Both the position numbers and the translations under genes were made by a program. DNA of 64,000 nt from Dethiobacter sp. (lineage in GTDB: Bacteria > Bacillota > Dethiobacteria > Dethiobacterales > Dethiobacteraceae). The notes under the pieces were generated by a model that was given only the letters and a program-made list of their open reading frames with translations, was not told where the DNA came from and did not search any database. The DNA lies in assembly GCA_018335875.1 (NCBI GenBank), contig JAGXRN010000067.1, positions 20,688-84,687 of the forward strand, in the 5' to 3' direction. How positions within the stretch are numbered: position 1 is the stretch's first letter; every line of letters begins with the position of its first letter. Shown piece after piece: positions 4,976 through 30,282 of the stretch.

Positions 4976-5023
4976 TCATGCAGAATCTGCTTAAATTTTA
5001 CTGCAGTGCAGAGAAGGATTATT

Positions 5024-5052: not shown

Positions 5053-5248
5053 TACTGTCAGTACCTGTATGTAAAAGGTATTTTTTTTAGAAATACATGA
5101 TAATTGCGGGAAATATTAAAATCTACGACTTTATTTTCGGCCAGCCTCAAATTTATAAGGCATGTTTTGATGAAAGGCATTCATCTTGCCGAAAGCAGGC
5201 AAGTATTCTGCCGTGGTCGTAATAACAGCTGTACGGGAGGAGATATAG

Positions 5249-13896: not shown

Positions 13897-13977
13897 AAGA
13901 TAAGGAACAAAGATTCAAAAATTCATGCAGGAATTCTACCCTGCCATGTGAAAATACTCGCACAGGAGAGTGAAAAA

Positions 13978-16545: not shown

Positions 16546-16863
16546 ATGTGTGAATACTATTTTGACGACGAGCGGGCCATTGCTTACAAAATCTATCCTG
16601 TTGTTTCCTCTACTCTCAAGGATGAAAAATCTGGTGTGGAAAAAGCCATTCTTGTACATACAAATGTTAAAGCAACTAATTTTAAAAAAGAAAAAGCACG
16701 CAGGCCACTGTCTGAAGTTTACCCCTTAAGCCACTATGACAAGGAGACTGCGGTCGCGGCCTTTTATGAAAAAATACTGGCCAGGGTTTTAGACGGAGCA
16801 CGAAAAATATCTGAACAGGAATATGATTTAATCAAGAACAGAGTAGAGGTAGGGACAGTTTAA
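16546..16863 (+). CDS. Hypothetical protein (105 aa)
   Basis: ATG lies 8 nt after GGGAGGG. I recognise no motif. Confidence 0.5.
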   Translation: MCEYYFDDERAIAYKIYPVVSSTLKDEKSGVEKAILVHTNVKATNFKKEKARRPLSEVYPLSHYDKETAVAAFYEKILARVLDGARKISEQEYDLIKNRVEVGTV

Positions 16864-16914
16864 ACCTATTCACTGCGCTCTGAAAAGGAAAATATTAATA
16901 GCAGGATATTAAGA

Positions 16915-17067
16915 ATTTGGGAGAGACCGTAATGATTAGCGGTCGCCGAAGGATAAATTCAGCTGTGCTGAAAAATCTCTCAGGTCTCAAGGGCAGGGCA
17001 GAATTTACCTCCATAGTACATTGTAAATAGTGTGCAATGGTGAACTCTGGAACTGTCTTTTGTTTTG
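16915..17067 (+). promoter_or_regulatory. Single glycine-riboswitch-like aptamer plus degenerate terminator (duplicate of aptamer 2 of the downstream tandem)
   Basis: GGGAGAGACC...CGCCGAAGGA...CTCTCAGGT...GGCAG core. By eye it is about 75-80% identical to 17394-17540, including the expression platform. Confidence 0.6.
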
Positions 17068-17284
17068 AAAAATTTTAGTAACAACAAAAATAGAACCTTT
17101 AACATAGTGATTTTGGTGCTGCAGTTGGGCCGCTTTTTGCCTGCCTGACAATTATGTTAAAGGTGCAACCTGGCCGATTTACTGTGGAAAACTAAATAAA
17201 AAATTCACACTAAAGCAGGAGATCATTAATTTATATAGAAATAAAATGATTATAAAAATTTAATGTTTTTAAAATTAATATTCT

Positions 17285-17536
17285 ACCGGATGAGGATTGT
17301 GGGAGAGACCTTTAAGTATACACTTAAGGGCACCGAAGGGGCAAAGTCGCTGACTGAAACTCTCAGGTAAAAGTACCGCATTCTGACGGAGCTCTGGAGA
17401 GACCGTGCTGCTTAGCGGTCACCGAAGGAGAAATTCAGCATGCTGAAGAATCTCTCAGGTCAAAGGACAGAGAAGAATTTACCGCTAAAGTACATATTAT
17501 TGGTGTGCAGAGGTAAATTCTGAGACTGTCTTTTTG
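17285..17536 (+). promoter_or_regulatory. Tandem glycine riboswitch with terminator expression platform
   Basis: Aptamer 1 reads GGGAGAGACC..CACCGAAGGGGCAA..CTCTCAGGTAAAAGTAC. Aptamer 2 reads CTGGAGAGACC..CACCGAAGGAG..CTCTCAGGTCAAAGGACAG. A long imperfect terminator follows (GACAGAGAAGAATTTACC / GGTAAATTCTGAGACTGTC + TTTTT), and its 5' arm overlaps the 3' end of aptamer 2. Confidence 0.85.
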
Positions 17537-17640
17537 TCTACAAAAACCTGTTTCATTTTTTTGACATTCTGTAGATAATAATAAAGTGCGCGGCACAATT
17601 AGAATTAAAGAAAGCGGGTGATTGCAGGCATTAAAGAAAG

Positions 17641-18399
17641 GTGTTCCGGTCGAGGAGAGTATTAAAAAAACGCGGAGGAGTGAATATATTGGCTGAAGAA
17701 ATTTTAAGAATTGCTAATGAGTTTGGAGTTTGGGTTATTGCTGCCATCCTGGTAAGCTTGGTTGCAGTACAATCAATAATGTATGTTAAGCTTGCTTATG
17801 CTGCAGCCGACAAGATTGGCATGAGCCAAGCAACCTGTAAGACTGCTTTCAGGACAGGTCTTATCACTGCCATCGGTCCTGTAATAGCAATCTTTATTAT
17901 CATGGTTGGCATGATGTCGGTTATTGGAGGCCCCATGAGTTGGATGAGATTATCAATTATCGGCGCCGCCCCGACAGAATTAACCGCAGCCCGGGTAGGC
18001 GCAGAAGCTTATGGCGTTGGGTTTGGCTCACCGGAATACGACATGATGGCGCTGGCAACTTCATGGTGGACAATGGCCATAAATGGCGTGGGCTGGCTGC
18101 TCCTGGTGGGGCTTTTCAGCCATAAACTGGAAACTCTCAGAGATGTTATCGGGGGCGGAAATGCAAAATGGCTGGCAATGCTAAGCGGCGCCGCCATGCT
18201 TGGAGTTTTTGGCTATCTCAATTCAGGCGATGTAGTAGCGGGAGGGGCAAGGCTTGTTGCTGTAATTGTGGGCGGAATTTCCATGGTCCTAATGGTTACA
18301 GTCGTTATAAAAAAAGTCCCTGCGCTTAAGGAGTATTCACTTGGTATAGCCATGCTGATCGGCATGTTTGGGGCTGTAATTGTCAGCTTAATGAGTTAA
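17641..18399 (+). CDS. Uncharacterised polytopic membrane protein A (about 6 TM)
   Basis: Hydrophobic and Gly/Ala-rich. It is the first gene after the glycine riboswitch. The start is uncertain; TTG at 17689 lies 8 nt after GGAGGAG. Confidence 0.75.
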   Translation: MFRSRRVLKKRGGVNILAEEILRIANEFGVWVIAAILVSLVAVQSIMYVKLAYAAADKIGMSQATCKTAFRTGLITAIGPVIAIFIIMVGMMSVIGGPMSWMRLSIIGAAPTELTAARVGAEAYGVGFGSPEYDMMALATSWWTMAINGVGWLLLVGLFSHKLETLRDVIGGGNAKWLAMLSGAAMLGVFGYLNSGDVVAGGARLVAVIVGGISMVLMVTVVIKKVPALKEYSLGIAMLIGMFGAVIVSLMS

Positions 18400-18421
18400 A
18401 TTATAACTTGGAGGTGAAGTT

Positions 18422-19099
18422 ATGTCAGATAAAAATTTTAACATGGATAAAGACTGGAGAGCGCCGGCGATAAAGCTTGGCATGATTACTCTGTTGCTTG
18501 CCTCAGTTTTGTCTTTTCTGCCCGTTATATATTTATACCTGGTTCATGGAGTGATTCCGCCGGTATCACTGATGTTAAAATCCTGGGGGATGATTGCACT
18601 ACTTTTTGGCGCTTTTTATATCGTTGAGCCTGTTTCATATTACGCAGTTCTGGGCCTTGCCGGAACATACATGTCATTTTTGTCAGGAAACATTTCCAAC
18701 CTTCGTTTACCCTGCGCTGCCATGGCCCTGGATGTCACAGAGACAGAGCCCGGGACCAAAGAGGCGGAGGTAGTATCTACACTTGGTATTGCCGGCTCAA
18801 TCATTACAAACCTGATAGGTGTGACATTGGCCGCGTTTATCGGCACTGCCTTAATCAGGGTTTTCCCGCCGGTAATTGCCAATGCTTTCAGGACATATAC
18901 AGTTCCTGCTATTTTCGGGGCCGTCTTTGGCCAGTTTGCCATTAAATATCCGAAGCTGGCAATTGTTGGTTTTGCCATACCGGTGGGCCTCAGGTTATTT
19001 ACCACCCTGCCTGTGTGGGTATTAATTGCCGCTTCCGTTCTTGGCACAATTGCCGTGGCAAAACTAATATTCAGCAGGGAAACTCCTGCTTCCGTCTAA
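18422..19099 (+). CDS. Uncharacterised polytopic membrane protein B (about 6 TM)
   Basis: ATG follows GGAGGTG. The protein is hydrophobic, and the gene is tightly linked to gene A. Confidence 0.75.
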   Translation: MSDKNFNMDKDWRAPAIKLGMITLLLASVLSFLPVIYLYLVHGVIPPVSLMLKSWGMIALLFGAFYIVEPVSYYAVLGLAGTYMSFLSGNISNLRLPCAAMALDVTETEPGTKEAEVVSTLGIAGSIITNLIGVTLAAFIGTALIRVFPPVIANAFRTYTVPAIFGAVFGQFAIKYPKLAIVGFAIPVGLRLFTTLPVWVLIAASVLGTIAVAKLIFSRETPASV

Positions 19100-19109
19100 T
19101 AACCAAAAA

Positions 19110-19140
19110 AAGACCTAGAGCCTTATTGGCTCTAGGTCTT
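19110..19140 (+). other. 13-bp perfect hairpin inside the operon
   Basis: AAGACCTAGAGCC-TTATT-GGCTCTAGGTCTT. An A-run precedes it and only TTT follows, so it may be a partial terminator or a stabiliser. Confidence 0.5.
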
Positions 19141-19185
19141 TAACCAAATCAAATAGCAGCCAATTTAATTATAAAGGAGGTAATA

Positions 19186-20379
19186 ATGTTGATTAATGTG
19201 GTGGAAGAGGCCAAAAAAATTCAGGCAGAGTTAATCAGTTGGCGCAGGGAACTTCATCAATTTCCGGAAGTAGGCCTTGAATTACCCGAGACAGCTGCTT
19301 ATGTATCTAAAAAACTAACAGAGCTTGGCATTGAGCACAAAACAGGGATTGGGGTTTCCGGTATTGTCGGCCTGATCAGGGGGAAAGAGGAAGGCAAAAC
19401 AATTGCAATCAGGGCGGACATGGACGGTCTGGCTATTAAAGAAGAAACAGGCCTGCCCTTTGCCTCCCAAAACGGAAATATGCATGCGTGCGGACACGAT
19501 GCCCACACATCGATGCTTCTTGGTGTAGCTAAAATTTTAAATGAAAATAAGGACAAGTTAAAAGGCAACATTAAGCTTCTTTTCCAGGCGGCAGAAGAAG
19601 GCCCTGGAGGAGCTAAGCCAATGATTGACGACGGCGCAATGGAAAATCCCCGGGTAGACGCTGTCATCGGCCTGCATATAGGGACAATCTTCAAAGAAAT
19701 TGGCCCTGGTGTTGTTGGTGTAGCTTACGGCAACCTGATGGCGTGTCTTGACAGGTTTGACATAAAAGTTATCGGCAAGGGATGTCACGGCGCCATGCCG
19801 GATACAGGAATAGACCCCATTGTTATGGCTGCCCAGGTAGTTAACGCCCTGCAAACTATTGTCAGCAGGGAAATTAAACCGACTGAACCTGCTGTGGTAA
19901 CTATCGGAGAAATCCATGGCGGCAGGTCATACAACATCATTCCCGACGCTGTTGATATAGTGGGGACGGCGCGGGCGACCAGCCAGGATGTCAGGGAGAA
20001 AATAGCTTCCCGGATGGAAGAGATAGTGGCCTCTGTTACCAAAGCAATGAGGGGAAGCTACGAGTTTAATTACACTTTCGGCTATCCTCCATTGGTAAAC
20101 GATGCAGGCTTTACTAAAGGCTTTGTTGAAACTGCCAAAAAAATTGTGGGGGAAGAAAAGATATTTGAGATCACCAAGCCTACCATGGGCGGTGAAGACA
20201 TGGCTTTCTTTTTGGAAAAAGTGCCGGGCACATTCTTCTTTCTTGGTGGAGGGAACGAAAGCAAAGGGATCGTTACCCCACATCACAATTCCAAATTTGA
20301 TGTTGACGAAGACGTATTTTGGATCGGAACTGCCCTCCTCGCACAGGGCGCAGTAGACTGGCTGGAAAAAAACTCCTAG
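19186..20379 (+). CDS. M20D amidohydrolase (N-acyl-amino-acid / hippurate hydrolase family)
   Basis: WRRELHQFPE, ACGHDAH, GGAKPMIDDG and GGEDMAFF motifs. Confidence 0.9.
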   Translation: MLINVVEEAKKIQAELISWRRELHQFPEVGLELPETAAYVSKKLTELGIEHKTGIGVSGIVGLIRGKEEGKTIAIRADMDGLAIKEETGLPFASQNGNMHACGHDAHTSMLLGVAKILNENKDKLKGNIKLLFQAAEEGPGGAKPMIDDGAMENPRVDAVIGLHIGTIFKEIGPGVVGVAYGNLMACLDRFDIKVIGKGCHGAMPDTGIDPIVMAAQVVNALQTIVSREIKPTEPAVVTIGEIHGGRSYNIIPDAVDIVGTARATSQDVREKIASRMEEIVASVTKAMRGSYEFNYTFGYPPLVNDAGFTKGFVETAKKIVGEEKIFEITKPTMGGEDMAFFLEKVPGTFFFLGGGNESKGIVTPHHNSKFDVDEDVFWIGTALLAQGAVDWLEKNS

Positions 20380-20402
20380 TAGTATAACAGGAGGGATGTA
20401 TA

Positions 20403-21647
20403 TTGAAAATCGCAGATAAAGTCAGCAAAAACAGGATCGAGAATCAGATTAAAACACTGGCACAAATAGGCGCCACCGGTGAAGGCGGCATTACACGTCT
20501 GCCATATACAAAAGACGAGCGAGCTGCTGTTGCTTTGGTTAAAAGCTATATGGAAGAAGCAGGCCTTCAAACATTCTTCGATCAGTTCGGTAACTTATTC
20601 GGTAAATTAGAAGGCAAAAGTACTGAAGCTCCTGTTGTCATGACAGGCTCCCATGTTGATACTGTAATAAACGGCGGCGCTTTTGACGGGGTTATAGGCA
20701 CCCTTGGCGCCATCGAAGCGTTGAGAGTTATCAGGGAAAACAATATACCTCATGTTCACACTCTGGAGGCGTGTGTCTTTGTTTCCGAAGAACCTGTAAG
20801 ATTTCGGGCGGGCACATTAGGCAGCAAAGCTGCCATCGGAGACTTTACACAAAGTGATTTGGACAGACTTAAGGATAAAGATAACATAAGCTTAGCGCAG
20901 GCAATTAAGGAGTGTGGCTTTAATCCTGAACAATTGGAAAGTGTAAGAAGGGATCCGGCAAAAATAAAGTGTTTTGTGGAACTGCATATTGAACAAAGCA
21001 TTATTCTTGAGACAAAGAAACTGCCAATTGGTGTGGTAGACCAAATAGCCGCCCCAACTAACTTCCGGTTGACATTAAAAGGGAAGGCCGGGCACGCCGG
21101 GGCCACCCCTATGAACATGCGCAATGATGCTTTTATGGCTGCGGCAGAAATCGCGCTCGAAATTGAAAGAATTGCAATCACCATAGGAAAGGAAGCAGTT
21201 GGCACTGTGGGGGAAGTTAAAGTTATACCAAACGCTATAAATGTTATCCCAGGCGAGGTGATACTGGGGATTGATGTAAGGGATGTTACCTCAAAAAGAA
21301 AAGATGAAGCAATCGCGGAAATAGAAAAGTCGATCAACAACATCGCCGCCAGAAGAAATATAGAAGCTGTGATTGAGATCATTCAAAAGCAGGAACCCGT
21401 TAAAACTTCTCCTCAGATTGTAGACATTATTTCATCCACCTGCAACGAACTTGGACTGCCCTGGTGCAACATAACAAGCGGTGCGTATCATGATGCCTTA
21501 AATATGGCTAAGATTACAGACATAGGTATGATTTTTATTCCCAGTGCCGGTGGCATAAGCCATGCAAAAGAGGAATTCAGCAGTATTGATGATATTTACC
21601 AGGGTGCACGGGTGCTGGCAGAAGTTTTGGTGAAACTGGCCTCCTGA
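20403..21647 (+). CDS. M20 Zn-hydrolase (N-carbamoyl-L-amino-acid / allantoate amidohydrolase family)
   Basis: GITRLPYT, GSHVDTVINGGAFDGVIG, GHAGATPM and SGAYHDA motifs. TTG start. Confidence 0.85.
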   Translation: MKIADKVSKNRIENQIKTLAQIGATGEGGITRLPYTKDERAAVALVKSYMEEAGLQTFFDQFGNLFGKLEGKSTEAPVVMTGSHVDTVINGGAFDGVIGTLGAIEALRVIRENNIPHVHTLEACVFVSEEPVRFRAGTLGSKAAIGDFTQSDLDRLKDKDNISLAQAIKECGFNPEQLESVRRDPAKIKCFVELHIEQSIILETKKLPIGVVDQIAAPTNFRLTLKGKAGHAGATPMNMRNDAFMAAAEIALEIERIAITIGKEAVGTVGEVKVIPNAINVIPGEVILGIDVRDVTSKRKDEAIAEIEKSINNIAARRNIEAVIEIIQKQEPVKTSPQIVDIISSTCNELGLPWCNITSGAYHDALNMAKITDIGMIFIPSAGGISHAKEEFSSIDDIYQGARVLAEVLVKLAS

Positions 21648-21744: not shown

Positions 21745-21970
21745 ATGAATCTGGCGGGAGAGGCCCAATCTTGGGACACCGAAGGAGAAACCTTTATGGC
21801 ATGGCAGTCTGGAGGGAAACTCTCAGGTATAAGTACCGGCAGGGGACGCGTCCCTGGAGAGAGCCCGCTTAACGTGGGACACCAAAGGGGTAATGCCCGG
21901 ATATCCGGGTTAATCTCTCAGGTAAAAAGGACAGGGGAAACGGCCGGTTGGTTGTTTTCCCTGTTTTTTT
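21745..21970 (+). promoter_or_regulatory. Tandem glycine riboswitch upstream of gcvT
   Basis: Aptamer 1 reads GGCGGGAGAGGCC..CACCGAAGGAG..CTCTCAGGTATAAGTAC. Aptamer 2 reads CTGGAGAGAGCC..CACCAAAGGGGTAA..CTCTCAGGTAAAAAGGACAG. The terminator is ACAGGGGAAA / TTTTCCCTGT + T7. Confidence 0.85.
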
Positions 21971-21999: not shown

Positions 22000-23103
22000 A
22001 TGTCACTCAGGAGAACGCCTTTTTATGGGAAACATATCGAGTTGAAAGGAAAGATGGTGGATTTCCTCGGTTGGTCGCTGCCTGTGCAATATGAAGGGAT
22101 TATTGCAGAAGTGCAAAAAGTAAGGCAAAGCGCCGGTATTTTTGACGTTTCCCATATGGGAGAAATTCTGGTCGAAGGCAAAGGTGCGCTTCCTTTTCTA
22201 CAGAAAATTGCTACAAACGATATCTCCCGCCTGAAGGCACACGGGATCATGTACAGCCCTGTCTGCTATAGCAGTGGTGGTACAGTGGATGATATCTTAA
22301 TCTACTGCTATAATCCTGAAAAATACCTGCTTGTTGTCAACGCGAGCAACGCCCAGAAAGATTTGGCCTGGCTAAAAGAGCACTGCAGCGGGATTGTCAC
22401 TGTCCGTGACATCTCTGAAGACATAGCACAAATCGCGCTGCAGGGGCCAAACAGCCTGGAAATACTGCTTTCACTCACAGATAAGTCGCTGGCAGTGTTG
22501 AAGTATTATACTTTTGTCCCTGAGGCAAGGGTAGCCGGCATTAAATGCCTGATATCACGGACCGGCTATACAGGCGAGGATGGGTTTGAAGTCTACTGCC
22601 AGGCAAGTGAAGCACGGGAACTGTGGGGTGAAATATGGAGCGCAGGCGGGGAAGACGGATTAGGGCTTGCTGCTGCAGGCCTTGGCGCGCGGGATATACT
22701 GCGTCTGGAGGCCGCGCTGCCCCTCTACGGCCATGAACTCACGGCAGATATTACACCCCTCGACGCCGGTCTCGACAGGTTTGTATCCTTTACAAAAGGG
22801 ATAAACTTTATTGGAAGGGGTGCATTAGTTAAACAAAAAGAGGAAGGCACTCTGAAAAGACTGTGCGGTCTTGAGATGTTGGAAAGGGGCATCGCACGGG
22901 AAGGCTACAGTGTAAGAGCGCAGGAGGAGGAAGTAGGTTGGGTGAGCAGTGGTTCTTATTCACCCACGCTGGACAAAGCAGTGGCTCTGGCGTTTTTAAA
23001 TCCTGAGCATGCACCTCTTGGAAATCAGGTTCAGGTTGTTATCCGGGGCAGGGAATACAATGCACGGGTTGTTAAAATACCTTTTTACAGGAGGGAAAAA
23101 TAA
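22000..23103 (+). CDS. gcvT: Glycine cleavage system T protein (aminomethyltransferase)
   Basis: RRTPFY, FDVSHMGE and RTGYTGEDGFE motifs. Confidence 0.95.
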   Translation: MSLRRTPFYGKHIELKGKMVDFLGWSLPVQYEGIIAEVQKVRQSAGIFDVSHMGEILVEGKGALPFLQKIATNDISRLKAHGIMYSPVCYSSGGTVDDILIYCYNPEKYLLVVNASNAQKDLAWLKEHCSGIVTVRDISEDIAQIALQGPNSLEILLSLTDKSLAVLKYYTFVPEARVAGIKCLISRTGYTGEDGFEVYCQASEARELWGEIWSAGGEDGLGLAAAGLGARDILRLEAALPLYGHELTADITPLDAGLDRFVSFTKGINFIGRGALVKQKEEGTLKRLCGLEMLERGIAREGYSVRAQEEEVGWVSSGSYSPTLDKAVALAFLNPEHAPLGNQVQVVIRGREYNARVVKIPFYRREK

Positions 23104-23510
23104 TGAAGTGGCAGGTACCTGATGGCGTATTATTTACACGTAAGCACGAGTGGGTGAGACAGGAAGAGGGAAATACCGTAGCGGTAGGTATTTCCGACTA
23201 TGCCCAGGATAAACTGGGAAGTATTGTTTTTGTTGAACTGCCTGAGATAGGGCGGGAGCTGAAGGCCCTTGAAGCAATGGCCGTAATAGAGTCTGTGAAA
23301 GCAGTGGCTGACACCTACTCACCGGTCGACGGCACAGTCGTGGAAGTAAATGAAGAGGTTCTGGACCAACCGGAGCTGTTGAACCAGGATCCTTACGGTG
23401 CAGGTTGGATGGTGAAGATAGAGCTCAAAGCAGGATATGTGTTTAGCGGCCTTTTGAACTCTCAGGAATACAAAGATCTTCTCCTGCAGGAGGAGGATGG
23501 TGCAGAGTGA
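23103..23510 (+). CDS. gcvH: Glycine cleavage system H protein
   Basis: Lipoyl-lysine motif ESVKAV, plus GISDYAQ. Confidence 0.95.
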   Translation: MKWQVPDGVLFTRKHEWVRQEEGNTVAVGISDYAQDKLGSIVFVELPEIGRELKALEAMAVIESVKAVADTYSPVDGTVVEVNEEVLDQPELLNQDPYGAGWMVKIELKAGYVFSGLLNSQEYKDLLLQEEDGAE

Positions 23511-24856
23511 GCGGAAGGCACTATCTCCCACTAACTGATGCAGAGAGGAAGGAAATGCTGTCTGCCGCCGGCGCAGCCACTGTTGAGGACTTGTTTGCCG
23601 ATATTCCCGCCAATGTCCGGCTGCAGCGCGAAATGAATCTGCCCCCGGCTCTGGCGGAAAGGGAGGCACTCCTTCATCTGGCCGCGCTTGCCGGCAGAAA
23701 TAAAAACAGTATAGACTGCATCTCTTTTCTGGGCGCAGGCATCTACGACCATTTCACACCAAGCGCAGTCAAACATGTGACTGGAAGAAGTGAATTCTAT
23801 ACATCATACACGCCATACCAGGCTGAAATCAGCCAGGGCGTACTACAGGCAATCTTTGAATACCAGACAATGATCTGTGAACTGACAGGGATGGATGTTG
23901 CCAACGCTTCACTTTACGATGGCGCCACAGCGCTGGCGGAGGGAGCCATTATGGCCTGCGGTTCGACACGCCGGGAAAAGGTGCTTGTGTCTCGTACAGT
24001 CAATCCTTTTTACAGGCAGGTCCTTGGCACATACCTCTCCAGCAGAGGCCTGCAGCTGGAAGAAGTACCGATGCTGGACGGGGAAACCGACTTAATAAAA
24101 TTGGAGGGCCTAATCGGCAGCGATATAGCTGCCTTCATACTCCAACGGCCAAATTTCTTTGGCATACTTGAAAATGTTGATAAAGTAGCTGACATCCTTC
24201 ATGCAAAAGGTGCCCTCTTAATAATGAGTGTGGACCCCCTTTCGCTGCCGCTTGTGGGGGCGCCTGCAGAGTACGGCGCCGATATTGTAGCGGGAGAAGG
24301 CCAGGGACTGGGGAATTCGCCCTCTTTTGGCGGCCCTCTGCTTGGGTTTTTCGCCTCCACCGACAAGCTGATCAGGCGCATGCCAGGACGCATTGTGGGT
24401 GAAACAGTCGATAAAGAAGGAAACAGAGGTTTTGTTCTTACACTGCAAACACGCGAGCAGCATATCCGGCGTGAGCGGGCAACATCTAATATCTGTTCCA
24501 ACCAAGCGTTAAACGCGCTGGCCGCAGCAGTTTACATGGCATGTCTGGGACCGGAGGGTATGAAAGAAGTTGCTTTTCAGTGCCTGCAAAAATCAGCGTA
24601 TGCGCGTGAAAAAATATCTTCTCTGGGGAACTACAGCATTGCTTTTAACGGTACTCACTTTAAAGAATTTGCTGTCAAAGTGCCGGGGGGCGCCCGCGCA
24701 CTTAACGCTGAACTTTTGAAAAGCAATATTCTCGGAGGTTTTGACTTAACGCCATATTACCCTGAATTAAAAAACACGATTCTTTTTTGCGTGACAGAGA
24801 ACAGAACAAAAGAGGAAATTGATATGCTTGTCCGTGTATTGGAGGGATGGAGATGA
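23507..24856 (+). CDS. gcvPA: Glycine dehydrogenase (decarboxylating) subunit 1
   Basis: Typical P-protein N-terminal half ([17 protein letters not shown]). GTG start overlaps the gcvH stop. Confidence 0.95.
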
Positions 24857-26313
24857 GAAAGCACAAAGAGCTTCTTTTTGAAATGGGGAGAGCCGGACGG
24901 CGCGGCTATTCCTTACCAGCCTGTGACGTCCCTGTAAAACCTGTCTCTGAGCTGCTGCCCGCTTCCATGCAGCGCAAACTACCCCTTGATTTGCCCGAGC
25001 TGTCGGAGGGCGAGGTAATGCGGCATTATACAGCCCTTTCCACACGCAATCACGGGGTTGATTCCGGTTTTTACCCCCTTGGCTCCTGCACAATGAAATA
25101 CAATCCAAAGGTGAATGAAGAGGCTGCAGCGCTTGCGGGCTTTGCTTTTGCTCACCCCTGCCAGGATGAGTCAACAGTCCAGGGTGCGCTGGAACTACTC
25201 TTTAAGGCTGAAGAAAGCCTGAAAGAAATCACCGGCATGGACAGGATTACTTTCCAGCCTGTGGCCGGAGCTCACGGTGAGTTGACAGGGTTGATGATGA
25301 TTGGAGCCTACCACCGCTCGCGAAATGAAAACAGAAATAAAGTGCTGGTTCCCGACTCAGCCCATGGCACAAATCCCGCCACGGCAGCTATGGCAGGTTT
25401 CGAAGTGGTACAGATACCCTCCGATGACAGGGGCTTGGTCGATATTAGAGCGCTAAAAGAAGCATTGGGGAGCGACACTGCGGCGTTGATGCTGACAAAC
25501 CCAAATACGCTGGGCCTGTTTGAAGAGGAGATTCTGGAGATTGCAGCTGCAGTCCATGAAGCAGGAGGGCTGCTCTACTATGACGGAGCAAACCTCAATG
25601 CTGTCATGGGCTATGCCCGCCCAGGCGATATGGGGTTTGATGTTGTCCACTTAAACCTGCATAAAACATTTTCCACACCGCACGGCGGGGGCGGCCCCGG
25701 CAGCGGCACAGTGGGTGTCAAAGAAAAACTTGTGCCTTTCCTGCCGCTTCCCCTGGTGGGACGCAATGAAGAAAGGTATTACTTTGACTATGACCGCCCG
25801 GCCAGCATTGGGAAAATTCACAGTTTTCACGGTAATTTCGGCGTGGTTGTCAAAGCGTACACCTATATCTGTATGATGGGAAGCTCCGGGCTAAAACAGG
25901 TAAGCGCAGACGCCGTACTCAATGCCAATTACCTGATGAGCAGGCTTAAAAGTTCTTATAACCTTCCATACGACAGATTATGCAAGCATGAATTTGTGCT
26001 TTCCGCCCGTGAGCAGAAGAAAAATGGAGTCAGCGCCTCCGATATAGCCAAGGCTCTTTTGGACTTTGGCTATCATCCCCCCACGGTATATTTTCCCCTT
26101 GTGGTGGAGGAAGCACTGATGATTGAGCCCACCGAGACAGAAAGCAAGGAGACGCTGGACTCTTTCGCCGGGGTCATGGAAAAGATCGCATGCCTGGCCC
26201 GGGATAACCCGGCAAGGGTGAAAGAGGCGCCGCACACCACCGTGGTGGGCAGGCTGGATGAAGTTAGGGCGGCGCGCCAGCCCCGGGTCCGTTGGCGCCG
26301 CAGTGACTCCTGA
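24853..26313 (+). CDS. gcvPB: Glycine dehydrogenase (decarboxylating) subunit 2
   Basis: The PLP-lysine region is [21 protein letters not shown] at 24853 overlaps the gcvPA stop (ATGA). Confidence 0.95.
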
Positions 26314-27182
26314 TGCAGCAACAAGACATAGAAGAGCTGCTTGAAGAGACTTGGGCTTTGCGCAGAGCCTATTTCCCGCATCGCATTGAATTTGTATATC
26401 CCATCCAGACACTGCCAGTAAGTATAACAGGAAGTGACTGTGCCCTGAACTGTGCCCATTGCGGCCGGGAATATATTAAACGGATGTCTACCCTTAAGGA
26501 GGCTGTGCAGGGTAAAAGAGGAGACTGCAAAAGCTTCCTGCTCAGCGGAGGCTGCGACACACGCGGCGCTGTTCCTCACCTGCTGCACCGTCAGGAAATC
26601 AATGAACTCGCAAGGCGGGGCCGCCTTAACATCCATGCAGGTTTGGTTGGGGAAGATGAGACAAGTGAACTGGCTAAATTGTCCACTGTAATCTCCTTTG
26701 ATTTTGTAGTGGATGACGAGACTATCGAGGAAGTCTACGGATTGCCTGTCAGCAGCGCCAGTTATATAGAGTCCTACCGCCGCCTGCGCCGCCTGACCCA
26801 CGTTGTCCCACATATTTGCATCGGCCTCAAAGGCGGTGAAATCAAGGGGGAGTACAAAGCGCTGGAGGCTCTGAAGCGCGAGGGGGCGCAAGCTATAAGT
26901 TTTATTATATTTCGACCCACTCCCAACACTGCATTTGCAGACTGCACTCCCCCCCCCGCAGCTGAAGTAGTCAGGATACTGTCAACTGCCCGCATCATGT
27001 TTCCACGCGTGCCGATTTACCTTGGCTGCATGCGTCCCGGGGGCAACTACAGAAGTATGCTGGACTGCCTGGCTATCAGGGCAGGTGTCAATAAGCTTGT
27101 CCACCCAAGCCCTGCAGCCCGCAATCTGGCTCAGGTACTGGGCCTAAATATAGTACGTAAAGAGGAGTGCTGCTCACTGTGA
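26313..27182 (+). CDS. Radical SAM protein (BioB/LipS-like), member 1 of a pair
   Basis: CX3CX2C motif CALNCAHC near the N-terminus. It is translationally coupled to gcvPB (TGATG). Confidence 0.8.
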   Translation: MQQQDIEELLEETWALRRAYFPHRIEFVYPIQTLPVSITGSDCALNCAHCGREYIKRMSTLKEAVQGKRGDCKSFLLSGGCDTRGAVPHLLHRQEINELARRGRLNIHAGLVGEDETSELAKLSTVISFDFVVDDETIEEVYGLPVSSASYIESYRRLRRLTHVVPHICIGLKGGEIKGEYKALEALKREGAQAISFIIFRPTPNTAFADCTPPPAAEVVRILSTARIMFPRVPIYLGCMRPGGNYRSMLDCLAIRAGVNKLVHPSPAARNLAQVLGLNIVRKEECCSL

Positions 27183-28174
27183 TACGCATGTCAGCCGGAA
27201 CGGCAGCCTGCCTGGGCTTAAAAACTATAAAGATGGATGTTCATCCAACCACGGCTTACCTGCTTTTGGGAGACAGCTGTACCATGAAATGTTCTTTTTG
27301 TCCTCAGGGGAAAGAAAGCAGCGGAGCAGCAGGCCGGCTCGGCAGGGTCACGTGGCCGTCTTTTTCTTTGCCGGAGTTGGAACAGGGACTGGAAAAAGCA
27401 GAAGAGTCAGGGATAAAAAGAATATGCCTGCAGGGTGTAAGGAATGAATTGAGTACAGCTGCTTTCCCGGCACTGGTAAAAAAGCTCAAAGAAATCTCGT
27501 CGCTGCCTGTCTGCACTTCTGCCTGGATTAAAGATGAAAATGAAGCTGCCCACCTGTTTGAATCCGGCGCAGACCGTGTCAGTATTGCACTTGATGCTGC
27601 CAGTGAAGAGGCGTATAAACAGTTTAAGGGCGGCTCCCTTGCACAAAGAAAAGAACTTCTTATTTCCTGTGCCCGCCGCTGGCCCGGGCGTATCAGCACA
27701 CACCTTATTTGCGGTCTGGGTGAAACAGAGCAGGAACTGCTGGCACTGACAGCAGAGCTCCTAATGGAGCAGGTAGCTGTGGCACTTTTTGCTTTTACTC
27801 CCCTTAAGGGGACTGCCCTGGCCGGCCAGCCTCCTCCAGAGGCGGGGAAATACAGGCGCATACAGGCGGCATCTTATTTGTTGCGTAAGAAACACCTTTC
27901 ATTTTCTCAGCTTGTCTTTGGCGAAAATGGCAGTCTGGAATCACTTGGCGTTACACCTGAAATGCTGCTGAATTTACTAAAAGGGAAAGAAGCGTTTTGT
28001 ACCAGCGGCTGCCCCGACTGCAACCGTCCTTATTATAACGAAAGGCCGGGGGGCTTTATCTACAACTTTCCAAGGCTCTTAACAGAGCCTGAGGAAAGAG
28101 AAGCCCTGGGGCTTATCACAGCAAGCCTGCAGGAGGTGAAAAGGAATGCGGGAAGTATGGCGGCTAATCTGTGA
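27167..28174 (+). CDS. Radical SAM protein (BioB/LipS-like), member 2 of a pair
   Basis: CX3CX2C motif CTMKCSFC, plus C-terminal Cys motif CTSGCPDCNRPYYNE. The start is uncertain (GTG 27167 or 27179, or ATG 27188). Confidence 0.8.
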   Translation: MLLTVIRMSAGTAACLGLKTIKMDVHPTTAYLLLGDSCTMKCSFCPQGKESSGAAGRLGRVTWPSFSLPELEQGLEKAEESGIKRICLQGVRNELSTAAFPALVKKLKEISSLPVCTSAWIKDENEAAHLFESGADRVSIALDAASEEAYKQFKGGSLAQRKELLISCARRWPGRISTHLICGLGETEQELLALTAELLMEQVAVALFAFTPLKGTALAGQPPPEAGKYRRIQAASYLLRKKHLSFSQLVFGENGSLESLGVTPEMLLNLLKGKEAFCTSGCPDCNRPYYNERPGGFIYNFPRLLTEPEEREALGLITASLQEVKRNAGSMAANL

Positions 28175-28880
28175 CGAACAACTGCCGGGTGAAAAAAATA
28201 TGTCACGGGATTTAGCCATTCTTGACGAAGTGGCAAAGGCTGCAGCGCCGCCAACTCTCCGTTTCTATACCTGGAGCCCTCCAGCCTTATCGCTGGGCTA
28301 TTTTCAGCAAGCTGAGGACGTGGCTGATATAGAGGCTTGCAGGCGCCTTGGCATAGAAATTGTGAGGAGGCCAACCGGAGGCAGAGCGCTGCTTCACCAC
28401 CGCGAACTAACTTATAGCGTGGCTGTGCCAGAAGGCCACCCGCTTATACCCACTGCAGTACTGCCTGCCTATAAGTTTCTCAGCAGTGCAATCATTAACG
28501 GTCTTTCCCTGTTAGGCGTAGAGGCTGACCTCTCAGCGGGTGAGAACAGGGGGAGGGGAAAGGCGCCGGGTTCGTGTTTTGATACTCCTTCAGCCTATGA
28601 AATACAAATTGGGGGCAAGAAAGTGGTAGGAAGCGCTCAGCTTCGCCGCAATGGAGCTCTTCTGCAGCACGGCTCTATTCTGCTTGAACTCTCACTGGAC
28701 CTCTACCGCCATGTCCTGCGCCATGACTGCAGGGAGGATAATTATATTGATATTCTGGGCAAAAGGGCGGCAGGGCTTCATGATCTTGGTTACAATACAC
28801 CCATAGAGGATCTTACGGGGGCAATGGTCAGTGGTTTTTCAGAGCTGCTGTCGACCGACTTCTTAAGGGAGGATTTATGA
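28146..28880 (+). CDS. Lipoate-protein ligase / octanoyltransferase family protein (catalytic domain only)
   Basis: WRLI...NMSRDLAILDE, RRPTGGRALLH and KKVVGSAQLRR (lipoyl-AMP lysine region). Length is 244 aa. Confidence 0.85.
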   Translation: MREVWRLICDEQLPGEKNMSRDLAILDEVAKAAAPPTLRFYTWSPPALSLGYFQQAEDVADIEACRRLGIEIVRRPTGGRALLHHRELTYSVAVPEGHPLIPTAVLPAYKFLSSAIINGLSLLGVEADLSAGENRGRGKAPGSCFDTPSAYEIQIGGKKVVGSAQLRRNGALLQHGSILLELSLDLYRHVLRHDCREDNYIDILGKRAAGLHDLGYNTPIEDLTGAMVSGFSELLSTDFLREDL

Positions 28881-28881
28881 T

Positions 28882-30282
28882 ATGGAACACTACCAGCTGA
28901 CTGTAATAGGAGGGGGTCCAGGCGGTTATGCAGCTGCCCTGCGCGCCGCTGCCCTGGGGCAGAAAACCCTCTTGATTGAGAAAGAAACACTGGGTGGCAC
29001 ATGCCTCAATCACGGGTGCATCCCAACCAAAACTTTGTTTCACAGCGCACAGCTCTATAATAAAATAAAAAAAGCAGGTGAATTCGGTTTTAGTACCGGT
29101 GAAGTTACTTTTTCTTATGGAAAAATACAGGACAGAAAAATTGCCGTTGTGGACAAACTTGTCACCGGTCTTTCAGGCTTGCTCAAAAGAGCCGGTGTTG
29201 AAACTTGTTTTGGCACGGCACAGCTTATTTCAGCCAACTTGGTTGAGATAGAAAAGGCAGATGGGAACAGGCTTAGGGCAGGTACAGACAAAATTATACT
29301 GGCGCCGGGCAGCGAGGAAATAATTCCCTCCGTCACCGGGATAGAACTGCCAGGAATTCTTACTTCAAGAGAGGCACTGGCGCTGAGGGAAGTTCCATCC
29401 AGCCTGGCAGTAATCGGCGGTGGTGTCATCGCTGTTGAGATGGCTTCAATCTTTGCATCTTTTGGCTGCTCTGTGACCATTGTGCAGAGAAGTATAATAC
29501 TGCGCCGGGAAGACAGGGAAATGGTGCGCCGCCTGATTCCTTATCTGCGCAAACAAGGCATTAAGATCATGACAGACACTCAGCTGGAAAAAATCGAACA
29601 GTCTGCAAACGGCTATGCTCTCACTGTCAGTGCAAGGCAAAAAGAAGAAACCGTAAAGGCGGAAGCTGTGCTGGTGGCAGTTGGCCGCAAGGCTTCAAGC
29701 GGAGGCCTTGACCTTAACTCCCTGGGGATTAAGTGCAGTTCCAGGGGCATTGATGTAAGTGATACAATGGAAACAAGTGCTGCGGGAGTCTATGCCATCG
29801 GGGACGCAGCTGCCCCGGGTTACTTCCTGGCTCACGTAGCAACCCACCAGGGGATTGTGGCAGCAGAAAACGCCGCCGGCCTGCAATCTGTTTTTAAAGG
29901 AGAAGTTGTGCCTGTCTGCATCTTTACACAGCCGGAACTGGCGCGAGTCGGGCTCACTGAAGAAGAGGCCAGAGAAAAAGGTTATGACGTTAAAGTAGGC
30001 AAATTTCCTTTTTCCGCCAACGGCAAGGCCTTTTTGCAAGGAGAAGGGGAAGGCGCCGTTAAAATTGTCTGTGACGGCAAAGACGGCCCTGTGCTTGGCG
30101 TCCATATATTGGGTCCGCATGCTTCCGACCTGATACAGGAGGGAGCGCTGGCAGTTTCTGCCGGCATTAAAATAAGTGAACTGGCGGATTTAATCCATCC
30201 CCATCCAACATTAAGCGAAGCTGTCTGGGAGGCTGCCCTTACTGTGGGAAAATCGCCGCTGCATCTTGAACACTGGGGGTAA
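28882..30282 (+). CDS. lpdA: Dihydrolipoyl dehydrogenase (L protein / E3)
   Basis: GGGPGGY..GGTCLNHGCIPTK redox disulfide and the C-terminal HPHPTLSE motif. Confidence 0.93.
   Translation: MEHYQLTVIGGGPGGYAAALRAAALGQKTLLIEKETLGGTCLNHGCIPTKTLFHSAQLYNKIKKAGEFGFSTGEVTFSYGKIQDRKIAVVDKLVTGLSGLLKRAGVETCFGTAQLISANLVEIEKADGNRLRAGTDKIILAPGSEEIIPSVTGIELPGILTSREALALREVPSSLAVIGGGVIAVEMASIFASFGCSVTIVQRSIILRREDREMVRRLIPYLRKQGIKIMTDTQLEKIEQSANGYALTVSARQKEETVKAEAVLVAVGRKASSGGLDLNSLGIKCSSRGIDVSDTMETSAAGVYAIGDAAAPGYFLAHVATHQGIVAAENAAGLQSVFKGEVVPVCIFTQPELARVGLTEEEAREKGYDVKVGKFPFSANGKAFLQGEGEGAVKIVCDGKDGPVLGVHILGPHASDLIQEGALAVSAGIKISELADLIHPHPTLSEAVWEAALTVGKSPLHLEHWG

What the first reader, a model, noticed from the sequence alone, without database searches (positions are those of the whole stretch)
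17285..21647. Glycine riboswitch controlling two uncharacterised membrane proteins and two M20 amidohydrolases
A canonical tandem glycine riboswitch with a terminator platform precedes a four-gene set. The set is two adjacent polytopic membrane proteins (252 and 225 aa, no transporter motif I recognise), an M20D N-acyl-amino-acid/hippurate-hydrolase-type enzyme, and an M20 N-carbamoyl-amino-acid/allantoate-amidohydrolase-type enzyme. It ends directly in front of the second glycine riboswitch and the gcv operon. Glycine riboswitches classically switch on glycine cleavage or glycine/alanine transporters. A glycine-induced pair of amidohydrolases plus a putative two-component permease instead suggests uptake and hydrolysis of glycine conjugates (N-acyl-, N-carbamoyl- or peptide-linked glycine) feeding the cleavage system. 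An alternative is that the membrane pair is a glycine exporter. The substrate and the membrane-protein family are open questions.
Basis: partly seen in the sequence, partly recalled or inferred. Interest (0 to 1): 0.75.

Follow-up and report, generated by a model that had tools for sequence, protein, structure and literature searches.

The report
Glycine riboswitch controls amidohydrolase uptake operon
A genuine glycine-sensing RNA switch turns on four genes: two amide-cleaving enzymes and a widespread, never-studied pair of membrane proteins that sits beside such enzymes in almost every genome examined, which suggests they import blocked amino acids such as N-carbamoyl- or N-acyl-glycine.

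Summary
A canonical tandem glycine riboswitch lies at 17286-17480 (aptamers 66.8 and 59.6 bits). Its terminator (17462-17540) shares its 5' arm with aptamer 2, which makes it an ON switch. It precedes four same-strand genes: A (DUF5058), B (no Pfam or NCBIfam family), C (M20D aminoacylase) and D (M20 L-carbamoylase type). A second tandem riboswitch and the gcv operon follow.

- **A and B are an obligate pair.** They are adjacent in 78 of 80 genomes, and their divergence correlates at r=0.93.
- **An amide hydrolase is almost always next to them.** One lies within 1.5 kb in 70 of 80 genomes: M20D, M20 carbamoylase, ArgE/DapE-type M20, M42, or in Tissierellia an N-carbamoylsarcosine-amidase homologue. 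In three Tissierellia loci this sits near glycine/sarcosine-reductase genes.
- **Neither protein resembles a known fold or family.** No accessible paper mentions DUF5058.
- **Riboswitch control is rare.** Most lineages, including the closest A-B-C-D relatives, have a PucR, sigma-54 or XRE regulator gene beside the cassette. A glycine riboswitch was found only here and in Clostridium acetireducens, out of about 140 loci.

Best reading: a two-subunit importer plus hydrolases for N-blocked glycine, induced by the product and feeding glycine cleavage. The transport role and the substrate are inferred, not shown.

The parts
16908..17075 (+). Partial upstream duplicate of the riboswitch: one glycine aptamer (16908-16999) plus a terminator-like hairpin and a U-run. 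No ORF follows it before the main riboswitch.
   Evidence: RF00504 at 33.1 bits, just above the 32-bit gathering score, with mismatches in P1. It is 81% identical to aptamer 2 plus the platform of the main riboswitch, at about 474 nt spacing. The hairpin folds at -26.3 kcal/mol, z = -2.9.
17286..17480 (+). Tandem glycine riboswitch: aptamer 1 at 17290-17388, aptamer 2 at 17384-17480, with leader-linker pairing.
   Evidence: RF00504 at 66.8 bits and 59.6 bits. The whole tandem aligns to the tandem-architecture model over positions 1-177.
17462..17540 (+). Intrinsic terminator that serves as the expression platform. Its lower stem, AAAGGACAG:CUGUCUUUU, uses the conserved 3' core and the P1 3' strand of aptamer 2.
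   Evidence: -28.4 kcal/mol, z = -5.9. In the fold of the whole leader the terminator forms and aptamer-2 P1 does not. If the shared strand is withheld, only the upper hairpin forms, and it ends 9 nt before the U-run.
17689..18399 (+). Gene A: polytopic membrane protein of family DUF5058 (236 aa from TTG 17689; the open frame extends upstream to GTG 17641).
   Evidence: PF16481 at 228 bits, E 1e-67. There are 414 homologues at 90% clustering, all named only 'DUF5058 family protein' or 'hypothetical'. Invariant motifs include IGAAPTELTAA.
18422..19099 (+). Gene B: polytopic membrane protein (225 aa) of a family that no library models; the obligate partner of A.
   Evidence: No Pfam or NCBIfam hit, also none for 43 distant members. 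The family has 832 clusters at 50% identity. B directly follows A in 78 of 80 genome loci. AF2 model has pLDDT 78.7 and the best Foldseek match in the PDB has E = 2.4.
19109..19141 (.). Perfect 14-bp hairpin in the 86-nt spacer between B and C.
   Evidence: -27.3 kcal/mol, z = -5.2. On the + strand no U-run follows it. On the - strand it fits a terminator pattern. The closest relatives (L083 group) have a different 21-bp hairpin at the same place.
19186..20379 (+). Gene C: M20D-type amidohydrolase (aminoacylase / hippurate-hydrolase / CpsA-like), 397 aa.
   Evidence: PF01546 plus PF07687. TIGR01891 at 371 bits against a cutoff of 154. CpsA model at 427 bits, below its 500 cutoff. Nearest solved relatives are 1ysj YxeP, 1xmb ILL2 and 6slf N-acyl-glutamine aminoacylase. 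The HACGHD metal-site motif is present in the sequence.
20403..21647 (+). Gene D: M20 amidase of the hydantoinase/carbamoylase family (L-carbamoylase / allantoate-amidohydrolase type), 414 aa.
   Evidence: TIGR01879 at 439 bits. NF006771 at 474 bits, above its 399 cutoff. The nearest solved relative is the N-carbamoyl-L-amino-acid hydrolase 3n5f at 319 bits, followed by ureidoglycolate hydrolase and allantoate amidohydrolase.
21745..21970 (+). Second tandem glycine riboswitch with its own terminator, also of the ON type.
   Evidence: RF00504 at 59.4 and 41.3 bits. The terminator GGACAGGGGAAAC...GUUUUCCCUGU followed by U7 folds at -30 kcal/mol, z = -8.1. There is no hairpin between the stop codon of D and this element.
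22000..30282 (+). Glycine cleavage operon: gcvT, gcvH, gcvPA, gcvPB, LipS1, a radical-SAM gene, a lipoate ligase and dihydrolipoamide dehydrogenase.
   Evidence: Pfam GCV_T, GCV_H, GDC-P, Radical_SAM, LplA-B_cat and Pyr_redox_2. NCBIfam LipS1.

Best explanation
The window, which comes from a Dethiobacter sp. genome, carries a glycine-induced operon A-B-C-D for taking up and hydrolysing N-blocked small amino acids.

Mechanism. Without glycine, transcription from upstream of 17286 stops at the terminator 17462-17540. Glycine bound to the tandem aptamers locks aptamer-2 P1 and its core, which removes the 5' arm of the terminator stem, so RNA polymerase reads on (an ON switch, as read from the sequence and predicted folds).

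Read-through expresses two membrane proteins that I infer form a heteromeric secondary importer. A is DUF5058 and B belongs to an unnamed family. It also expresses two cytoplasmic amide hydrolases: C, an M20D aminoacylase, and D, an M20 L-carbamoylase type. These would release a free amino acid from N-acyl or N-carbamoyl (ureido) conjugates. The most likely product here is glycine, from N-carbamoylglycine (hydantoate), N-acylglycines, or possibly glycyl peptides.

The glycine produced would sustain induction of this operon (product induction). It would also switch on the second riboswitch and the gcv operon immediately downstream, which consumes the glycine.

The cassette is ancient and widespread, and in most lineages has a protein-regulator gene beside it. 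In this lineage a glycine riboswitch occupies the place of the PucR gene.

Shown by computation: the riboswitch, the terminator overlap, the gene classes and the conserved gene linkage. Inferred: transport, the direction of transport, the A-B complex, the substrate and co-transcription.
For: Riboswitch and switch logic.

A and B as one functional unit:
- B follows A in 78 of 80 species-level genome loci across Clostridia, Tissierellia, Halanaerobiales, Synergistota, Lachnospiraceae and Oscillibacter.
- Pairwise divergence of A and B correlates at r = 0.93, against 0.83-0.84 for either with C.
- Both are polytopic, with invariant polar or charged motifs in membrane segments.

Linkage to amide hydrolases:
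- A hydrolase gene lies within 1.5 kb in 70 of 80 loci. Seven of the ten exceptions have under 850 bp of sequence on at least one side of the pair.
- The counts are M20D 50, carbamoylase type 13, ArgE/DapE-type M20 11, isochorismatase type 10 and M42 3.
- The isochorismatase-type neighbour in Tissierella creatinini is closest to Arthrobacter N-carbamoylsarcosine amidohydrolase 1nba (217 bits, E 2e-63). Its product would be sarcosine, which is N-methylglycine.
- In Tissierellia locus L064 the gene order is GrdE-GrdB-sigma54 activator-amidase-A-B.
- So two unrelated enzyme folds, each closest to N-carbamoyl-amino-acid amidases, sit next to the same membrane pair.

Regulators and relatives:
- PucR-family regulators, a class known from ureide and purine catabolism, are adjacent in 30-35 of 80 loci.
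- The same A-B-C-D set occurs in C. aceticum and in three metagenome contigs. PucR lies upstream in C. aceticum and one contig; the other two are cut off at the contig end on that side.
- A second, independent riboswitch-cassette pairing exists in C. acetireducens, where the riboswitch was duplicated together with the cassette.

Position and precedent:
- There is no terminator between D and the gcv riboswitch.
- C. difficile has a lysine riboswitch in front of the transporter gene yfcC and an M20D amidohydrolase (PMC11477304).
Against: - No experiment, and no homology or fold match, shows that A-B transport anything. Pfam, NCBIfam, PDB profile searches and Foldseek were all negative. The AF2 model of A is poor (pLDDT 60).
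- Glycine as the product is inferred only from the riboswitch and the gcv neighbourhood. The substrates of C and D cannot be read from sequence. NCBIfam places D in an 'allantoate amidohydrolase' subfamily.
- Riboswitch control is found in only 2 lineages among about 140 loci with enough upstream sequence. It is therefore a local rewiring, not a property of the cassette.
- An ON switch on an acquisition system is the opposite of the OFF logic reported for glycine-riboswitch-controlled transporters (PMC6944388).
- About 150 nt lie between the terminator and the start codon of A. They contain a perfect TTGACA at 17561-17566, so some glycine-independent transcription cannot be excluded.
- A strong hairpin between B and C might uncouple the expression of C-D from that of A-B.
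- In C. acetireducens the terminator does not overlap the aptamer, so its switching logic could not be read.
Confidence: 0.5

Rival explanations
1. The cassette salvages or catabolises N-blocked amino acids or short peptides in general and is not specific for glycine. In this lineage the glycine riboswitch only ties its expression to amino-acid-rich conditions, or it was captured by chance when the cassette landed next to the gcv riboswitch.
For: - The cassette is usually flanked by PucR, sigma-54 or XRE regulator genes and has no link to glycine genes. None of 156 loci has gcv genes nearby and only 3 have Grd genes.
- The neighbouring hydrolases are diverse and include M42 aminopeptidases and ArgE/DapE-type enzymes.
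- Local riboswitch duplications are evident: a remnant lies 474 nt upstream, and the cassette is flanked by two riboswitches.
Against: - Two unrelated lineages carry a tandem glycine riboswitch directly in front of A.
- In Tissierellia the pair sits with an N-carbamoylsarcosine-amidase homologue, and in three loci near glycine/sarcosine-reductase genes.
- The riboswitch and its terminator are intact and well structured.
Confidence: 0.22
2. A-B is an exporter. It would remove glycine or another hydrolysis product when glycine is in excess, working alongside glycine cleavage as a detoxification response.
For: - An ON switch that responds to excess ligand is the typical logic for efflux and degradation genes.
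- It is co-induced with gcv.
- Both proteins are small polytopic membrane proteins, as two-part amino-acid exporters such as AzlCD are (from memory, not tested).
Against: - A dedicated glycine exporter would not need a hydrolase gene next to it in 70 of 80 genomes, nor PucR- or sigma-54-type regulators.
- No similarity to any known exporter family was found.
Confidence: 0.12
3. A and B are not transporters. They could be membrane-bound enzyme subunits, anchors or sensors that work with the soluble hydrolases.
For: - There is no sequence or fold similarity to any transporter.
- No literature mentions the family.
Against: - Both consist almost entirely of membrane helices with no soluble domain.
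- The hydrolase neighbours come from three unrelated folds. This fits a shared supply of substrate better than a specific protein complex.
- The loci usually lack another transporter gene inside the cassette.
Confidence: 0.1
4. The riboswitch no longer governs the four genes. They would be transcribed mainly from a promoter between the terminator and A, and the riboswitch would be a decaying duplicate like the remnant upstream.
For: - A 150-nt gap after the terminator holds a perfect -35 hexamer, TTGACA (17561-17566), followed after 15 nt by TAAAGT.
- A degenerate riboswitch copy lies 474 nt upstream.
- C. acetireducens has an orphan riboswitch copy with no gene behind it.
Against: - Both aptamers score far above threshold and the terminator is intact with a proper U-run.
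- The promoter scan found no more sites than in shuffled sequence, and none with standard spacing in the gap apart from one 9/12 match overlapping the start codon.
Confidence: 0.06

Closest known systems
Bacillus subtilis gcvT-gcvPA-gcvPB tandem glycine riboswitch (ON switch with a terminator platform)
   Same: - Two RF00504 aptamers joined by a leader-linker helix.
- The terminator shares its 5' arm with the 3' part of aptamer 2.
- Glycine would therefore activate transcription (knowledge of the B. subtilis element; PMC6944388, PMC7161355).
   Different: The controlled genes are not glycine cleavage genes or a known glycine/alanine transporter. They are an uncharacterised membrane pair plus two M20 hydrolases. 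A second riboswitch of the same type follows the operon, and a half copy precedes it.
Escherichia coli abgABT (two M20-type hydrolase subunits plus the AbgT importer for p-aminobenzoyl-glutamate)
   Same: One operon combines a membrane uptake component with two M20-family amide hydrolases that free an amino acid from an N-acyl conjugate. An Abg-type protein (3io1) is a distant solved relative of C.
   Different: A and B show no similarity to AbgT or any other known transporter. The uptake component consists of two separate small proteins. Regulation is by a riboswitch, whereas abg has the LysR-type AbgR (from memory).
Clostridioides difficile lysine riboswitch - yfcC - M20D amidohydrolase operon
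   Same: An amino-acid riboswitch precedes a putative transporter gene and an M20D amidohydrolase (PMC11477304).
   Different: The ligand, the transporter family and, most probably, the logic all differ. Lysine riboswitches switch genes off, whereas this element switches them on.
PucR-linked A-B-C(-D) cassettes in other anaerobes (for example Clostridium aceticum CACET_c22830/c22820 and Lachnospiraceae loci)
   Same: The membrane pair and hydrolases are orthologous (66-78% identity in C. aceticum) and in the same gene order.
   Different: Those loci carry a PucR-family regulator gene and no riboswitch. The window has no PucR gene and has a glycine riboswitch instead.
N-carbamoylsarcosine step of anaerobic creatinine degradation in Tissierella
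   Same: In Tissierella creatinini and other Tissierellia, A-B follow a close homologue of N-carbamoylsarcosine amidohydrolase. In three of these loci they lie near glycine/sarcosine-reductase B components (pathway described in PMC5364220). This parallels the window's carbamoylase-type D plus a glycine sensor.
   Different: The amidase has a different fold (isochorismatase type rather than M20). Those loci carry a sigma-54 activator gene beside the genes. No role for the membrane pair has been proposed in that pathway.

Membership tests
Tandem glycine riboswitch (Rfam RF00504, two aptamers) | Two adjacent aptamers, each scoring above the family's gathering score and carrying the conserved cores | tested here: met
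   66.8 bits and 59.6 bits, against a threshold of 32. The GGAGAG, CCGAAGG and CUCUCAGG cores are present in both.
Tandem glycine riboswitch (Rfam RF00504, two aptamers) | Leader-linker helix with kink-turn-like GA motifs joining the two aptamers | tested here: met
   CCG(17286-88)GAUGA pairs with CUGACGG(17382-88) in the tandem-model alignment.
Tandem glycine riboswitch (Rfam RF00504, two aptamers) | An expression platform that competes with the aptamer | tested here: met
   The lower terminator stem uses AAAGGACAG of the aptamer-2 core and P1.
Tandem glycine riboswitch (Rfam RF00504, two aptamers) | Selective, cooperative glycine binding and glycine-dependent read-through | not testable with these tools
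   Needs in-line probing or ITC, and transcription or reporter assays.
glycine-GGAnGA variant riboswitch (RF03166) | Score above the gathering threshold and altered binding-site nucleotides | tested here: not met
   96.9 bits against a threshold of 110. Both aptamers keep the canonical glycine cores rather than the variant ones.
DUF5058 (PF16481) - gene A | Full-length match to the family model above its cutoff | tested here: met
   228 bits against a cutoff of 28.2, covering model positions 1-222 of 222.
Known transporter families (any Pfam or NCBIfam transporter model; solved transporter folds) - genes A and B | Sequence-profile or structural similarity to a characterised transporter | tested here: not met
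   - No further Pfam or NCBIfam hits, even at E up to 10.
- PDB profile searches returned nothing at E up to 10.
- The best Foldseek match has E = 2.4 with TM below 0.3.
- A and B are not homologous to each other (hhalign probability 1.4%).
M20D amidohydrolase / aminoacylase subfamily (TIGR01891) - gene C | Subfamily model above its cutoff, an M20 catalytic domain plus a dimerisation domain, and the metal-site motif | tested here: met
   371 bits against a cutoff of 154. PF01546 plus PF07687. HACGHD motif in the sequence. Nearest structures are YxeP and ILL2. Substrate not testable.
Hydantoinase/carbamoylase-family amidase (TIGR01879) - gene D | Subfamily model above its cutoff and closest similarity to characterised N-carbamoyl-amino-acid, ureidoglycolate or allantoate amidohydrolases | tested here: met
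   439 bits against a cutoff of 204. 3n5f L-carbamoylase at 319 bits. All equivalog models for specific enzymes (AllC, ErtE) are below their cutoffs, so the exact reaction is open.
Conserved 'DUF5058 - partner - amide hydrolase' cassette (defined here) | A directly followed by B on the same strand, with an amide hydrolase gene within 1.5 kb | tested here: met
   In the window, the A-B gap is 22 nt and C starts 86 nt after B. Across genomes, B follows A in 78 of 80 loci and a hydrolase is nearby in 70 of 80.

The most novel reading that the evidence does not exclude
DUF5058 and its unnamed partner form a previously unrecognised class of two-subunit secondary transporter, with a fold absent from the PDB, dedicated to ureido- and N-acyl-amino acids such as N-carbamoylglycine, N-carbamoylsarcosine and acylglycines. 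The glycine riboswitch in this genome would be the first natural clue to its substrate. It would also define a product-induced 'glycine-conjugate to glycine cleavage' pathway in anaerobes.
Probability: 0.3. Interest if true: 0.75.

Novelty: new variant of a known kind. Interest (0 to 1): 0.6.

Why it matters
Glycine riboswitches are textbook regulators of glycine cleavage and of sodium:alanine/glycine symporters. A canonical ON-type tandem switch driving amide hydrolases plus an unknown membrane pair extends the known regulon.

More usefully, it gives a ligand-level hint for an orphan protein pair. That pair is widespread in gut, sludge and sediment anaerobes: 832 sequence clusters at 50% identity for B alone. 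It has no family description beyond a DUF label, no fold match and no literature.

Two observations make a concrete hypothesis directly testable. The pair is constantly next to amide hydrolases, including two unrelated folds each closest to N-carbamoyl-amino-acid amidases. In some loci it also lies next to glycine/sarcosine-reductase genes. The hypothesis is uptake of ureido- or N-acyl-glycine-type compounds. It bears on anaerobic degradation of creatinine, hydantoins, ureides and acylglycines such as hippurate.

Tried and rejected
**Classifying A and B**
- Sequence searches gave nothing beyond DUF5058 for A: Pfam at E up to 10, NCBIfam, and PDB profile searches. Pfam on 43 distant B relatives also gave nothing.
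- Testing whether A and B are homologous halves of one transporter gave hhalign probability 1.4%, so this was rejected.
- AF2 of A with a 19-sequence alignment gave pLDDT 60, which is unusable. AF2 of B with 120 sequences gave pLDDT 78.7, but Foldseek against the PDB found nothing (E at least 2.4). The poor A model also found nothing.
- No natural A-B fusion appeared among the top 150 representatives of the B family.

**Looking for other riboswitch-controlled copies**
- I ran four Rfam gathering scans (58 locus entries, 57 distinct loci).
- I also ran my own covariance model. It missed aptamer-1-type training sequences, so its negatives are weak.
- A regular expression over all 156 loci was the third check.
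- The only other case is C. acetireducens. No other riboswitch class was found directly upstream of the pair in the scanned loci.

**Other ideas tested**
- I checked whether the upstream class-V aminotransferase (14889-16046) is a PucG-like ureidoglycine aminotransferase, which would link D to allantoate and glycine. Rejected: it is a cysteine-desulfurase / selenocysteine-lyase type with a selenium-associated LysR regulator.
- I tried to read ON or OFF logic for the C. acetireducens riboswitch. Its terminator does not overlap the aptamer, so the logic stays unresolved.
- An alignment of the regions between riboswitch or regulator and A found no conserved leader.
- Literature searches for DUF5058 and PF16481 returned no papers.

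Full report
**1. What is in the sequence**

Rfam finds four glycine aptamers at gathering score on the + strand:
- 17290-17388, at 66.8 bits;
- 21745-21848 and 21852-21936, at 59.4 and 41.3 bits;
- a borderline one at 16908-16999, at 33.1 bits.

The stretch directly after the first aptamer, 17384-17480, scores 59.6 bits when searched on its own. The element in the finding is therefore a true tandem. Both aptamers keep the canonical cores, and the leader pairs with the inter-aptamer linker. The whole tandem also aligns to the variant model RF03166. That match stays below threshold (96.9 against 110 bits) and the binding-site sequences are the ordinary ones, so this is a standard glycine riboswitch.

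**2. Switch logic**

Bases 17462-17536 form a long hairpin followed by UUUUUGU. It folds at -28.4 kcal/mol with z = -5.9 against shuffles.
- The lower stem (AAAGGACAG with CUGUCUUUU) is built from the conserved 3' core and the P1 3' strand of aptamer 2.
- In the unconstrained fold of the whole leader the terminator forms and aptamer-2 P1 does not.
- If the shared strand is withheld, only the upper hairpin remains, and it ends 9 nt before the U-run.

Glycine binding should therefore prevent termination, which makes this an ON switch. The second riboswitch has the same design. This is the arrangement known from B. subtilis gcvT (background knowledge; PMC6944388, PMC7161355). It is a reading of the sequence and predicted folds, not a measurement.

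**3. The genes**

Four same-strand ORFs follow the riboswitch.
- **A**: the open frame runs 17641-18399. Homologues and a GGAGGA box favour the TTG at 17689, giving 236 aa. A is a full-length DUF5058 protein (PF16481, 228 bits).
- **B**: 18422-19099. It matches nothing in Pfam or NCBIfam.
- **C**: 19186-20379. It is an M20D amidohydrolase. Its nearest solved relatives are YxeP, plant IAA-amino-acid hydrolase and a bacterial N-acyl-glutamine aminoacylase.
- **D**: 20403-21647. It belongs to the hydantoinase/carbamoylase M20 family and is nearest to a Geobacillus N-carbamoyl-L-amino-acid hydrolase.

The gaps between genes are 22, 86 and 23 nt. No terminator-like site on the + strand lies within the cluster or between D and the next riboswitch. 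The number of promoter-like matches is no higher than in shuffled sequence.

Three caveats apply:
- The terminator and the start of A are 150 nt apart.
- That gap contains a perfect TTGACA at 17561-17566.
- A perfect 14-bp hairpin sits between B and C.

Downstream are gcvT, gcvH, gcvPA and gcvPB, plus lipoylation genes and a dihydrolipoamide dehydrogenase.

**4. What the membrane pair is**

Both proteins are 100% identical to proteins of a Dethiobacter sp. metagenome-assembled genome.

In 80 species-level genome loci:
- B directly follows A in 78.
- Pairwise divergence of A and B correlates at r = 0.93, against 0.83-0.84 for either with the adjacent hydrolase.

This fits two subunits of one machine. 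Both are made almost entirely of membrane helices, with invariant polar and charged motifs: IGAAPTELTAA in A, and GTYxSFLxGNxxNxRxP and VEP in B.

They are not detectably related to each other, to any PDB sequence or to any solved fold. The B model has pLDDT 78.7 and its best Foldseek match has E = 2.4. The A model is poor. No paper in the library mentions DUF5058 or PF16481.

**5. What the pair keeps company with**

A hydrolase gene lies within 1.5 kb of A-B in 70 of 80 genome loci. Seven of the ten exceptions have under 850 bp of sequence on at least one side of the pair. The counts are:

| Neighbouring hydrolase | Loci |
|---|---|
| C-type M20D | 50 |
| D-type carbamoylase | 13 |
| ArgE/DapE-type M20 | 11 |
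| Isochorismatase-type hydrolase | 10 |
| M42 peptidase | 3 |

These assignments rest. The isochorismatase-type neighbour in Tissierella creatinini is by far closest to Arthrobacter N-carbamoylsarcosine amidohydrolase (1nba, 217 bits). In one Tissierellia locus the gene order is GrdE-GrdB-sigma-54 activator-amidase-A-B. Tissierella species ferment creatinine via sarcosine and glycine, and N-carbamoylsarcosine amidase is one of the associated enzymes (PMC5364220).

So the same membrane pair sits beside two unrelated enzyme folds, each closest to N-carbamoyl-amino-acid amidases, and beside aminoacylases. This is the main argument that A-B supply such enzymes with substrate, meaning they import N-blocked amino acids. 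It is also the argument that small glycine-type conjugates are plausible substrates. It is circumstantial.

**6. How the cassette is regulated elsewhere**

A PucR-family regulator gene is adjacent in 30-35 of the 80 loci. A sigma-54 PAS activator is adjacent in 6.

The relatives that share all four genes are C. aceticum and three metagenome contigs, at 66-78% identity. They have the order A-B-C-D and no riboswitch, and PucR lies upstream in C. aceticum and one contig; the other two are cut off at the contig end on that side. The closest relatives of all (80-87% identity) have a small XRE-type regulator, lack D and are followed by a TRAP transporter. The window has no PucR gene.

A glycine riboswitch in front of A was found in only one other place, Clostridium acetireducens. 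There a tandem riboswitch precedes A-B-C. A second, 89% identical copy follows the operon with no gene behind it. The repeat includes the 3' end of the preceding M20D gene, so the riboswitch was duplicated together with the cassette.

Of 141 loci with at least 300 nt upstream of A, a core-motif search finds an aptamer only there. Four Rfam scans (58 locus entries, 57 distinct loci) agree. Riboswitch control is therefore a rare, lineage-specific rewiring of an old cassette.

**7. Most likely mechanism**

Glycine switches on A-B-C-D and, through the second riboswitch, the cleavage system.
- If A-B import N-carbamoyl- or N-acyl-glycine and C and D release glycine, then basal expression yields glycine. 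That glycine induces the operon and the pathway that consumes it. This is induction by product.
- This explains the ON logic, the position next to gcv and the replacement of PucR.
- It does not explain why two hydrolases are needed, and it rests on the unproven transport role.

The rivals are a general, non-glycine substrate range with opportunistic regulation, an exporter, a non-transport role, and loss of riboswitch control. I rate them as given in the rival list. The exporter idea is weakened most by the near-constant hydrolase neighbourhood.

**8. Comparison with known systems**

The RNA is a member of the tandem glycine riboswitch family. All sequence-level criteria are met and ligand binding is untested.

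The gene set works like abgABT of E. coli (importer plus two M20 hydrolase subunits). It also resembles the C. difficile lysine-riboswitch-yfcC-M20D operon (PMC11477304). It is not a member of either, because A and B match no known transporter family.

I file the finding as a new variant of a known kind: a known riboswitch class with an unusual regulon that includes an uncharacterised membrane-protein pair.

**9. Verdict**

Interest is 0.6. The riboswitch itself is ordinary. It does provide a rare functional handle on a widespread orphan membrane module that has no detectable fold relatives.

Noticed in passing
window 16908-17075 (+): A half copy of the riboswitch lies 474 nt upstream of the real one. 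It comprises aptamer 2, a terminator-like hairpin and a U-run, and is 81% identical. It sits right after a 105-aa ORF with no family match (16546-16863), and no gene follows it. It could be a decaying duplicate, or a singlet-type first checkpoint for transcripts coming from upstream.
   Followed up: partly
window 19109-19141; L083 8428-8472: A perfect 14-bp hairpin lies in the B-C spacer (-27 kcal/mol) with no U-run on the coding strand. The closest relatives carry an unrelated 21-bp hairpin at the same place, while the C. aceticum group has none. It may be an RNA-stability or attenuation element that sets the ratio of membrane pair to enzymes.
   Followed up: partly
L003 (Clostridium acetireducens) 1300-1398 / 4686-4784 and 1710-1874 / 4909-5076; 5747-5848: The 3' end of an M20D gene together with a tandem glycine riboswitch is repeated on both sides of A-B-C (96% and about 89% identity). 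The second riboswitch has no ORF behind it. It is followed by a purine riboswitch and a 453-aa ORF. This looks like a partial tandem duplication of a riboswitch-cassette unit.
   Followed up: partly
L003 1875-1990: In C. acetireducens the strong terminator (12 bp plus U8) does not overlap the aptamer. A promoter-like TTGATA-N17-TATATA follows it. Whether that riboswitch is ON, OFF or bypassed could not be read from the folds.
   Followed up: partly
window 26313-30282 (+): The gcv operon continues with LipS1 (NF053742), a radical-SAM gene that may be the LipS2 partner, an LplA/B-type lipoate ligase and a dihydrolipoamide dehydrogenase. Together they make a self-contained glycine cleavage plus lipoylation operon behind the riboswitch.
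   Followed up: partly
window 13948-16046 (+): A selenium-metabolism-associated LysR regulator (NF040786, above its cutoff) overlaps by one base with a cysteine-desulfurase / selenocysteine-lyase-type gene (SclA-like). I checked this because a PucG-like aminotransferase would have linked D to ureide catabolism. It is not one.
   Followed up: yes
window 53613-53824 (-): A T-box leader (118.9 bits) lies upstream of a 2-isopropylmalate-synthase-type gene (52001-53560; HMGL-like plus LeuA_dimer domains). This is an ordinary leucine-biosynthesis control.
   Followed up: yes
L148 and L149, 5073-6969: Distant metagenomic relatives (32-38% identity) carry two A paralogues in tandem followed by one B. 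This hints at variable subunit composition in the family.
   Followed up: no
window 17561-17589 (+): A perfect -35 hexamer, TTGACA, is followed after 15 nt by TAAAGT, between the terminator and gene A. It could give weak glycine-independent expression, but it is not statistically remarkable.
   Followed up: no
L083-L085, L091-L094 (closest relatives of A/B/C): In these loci A-B-C lack D. They are preceded by an 86-aa XRE-type HTH gene and a 45-aa ORF, and are followed by a TRAP transporter (DctPQM), KduI and a sugar-phosphate-isomerase-type gene. This is a different regulatory and metabolic setting for near-identical proteins.
   Followed up: no
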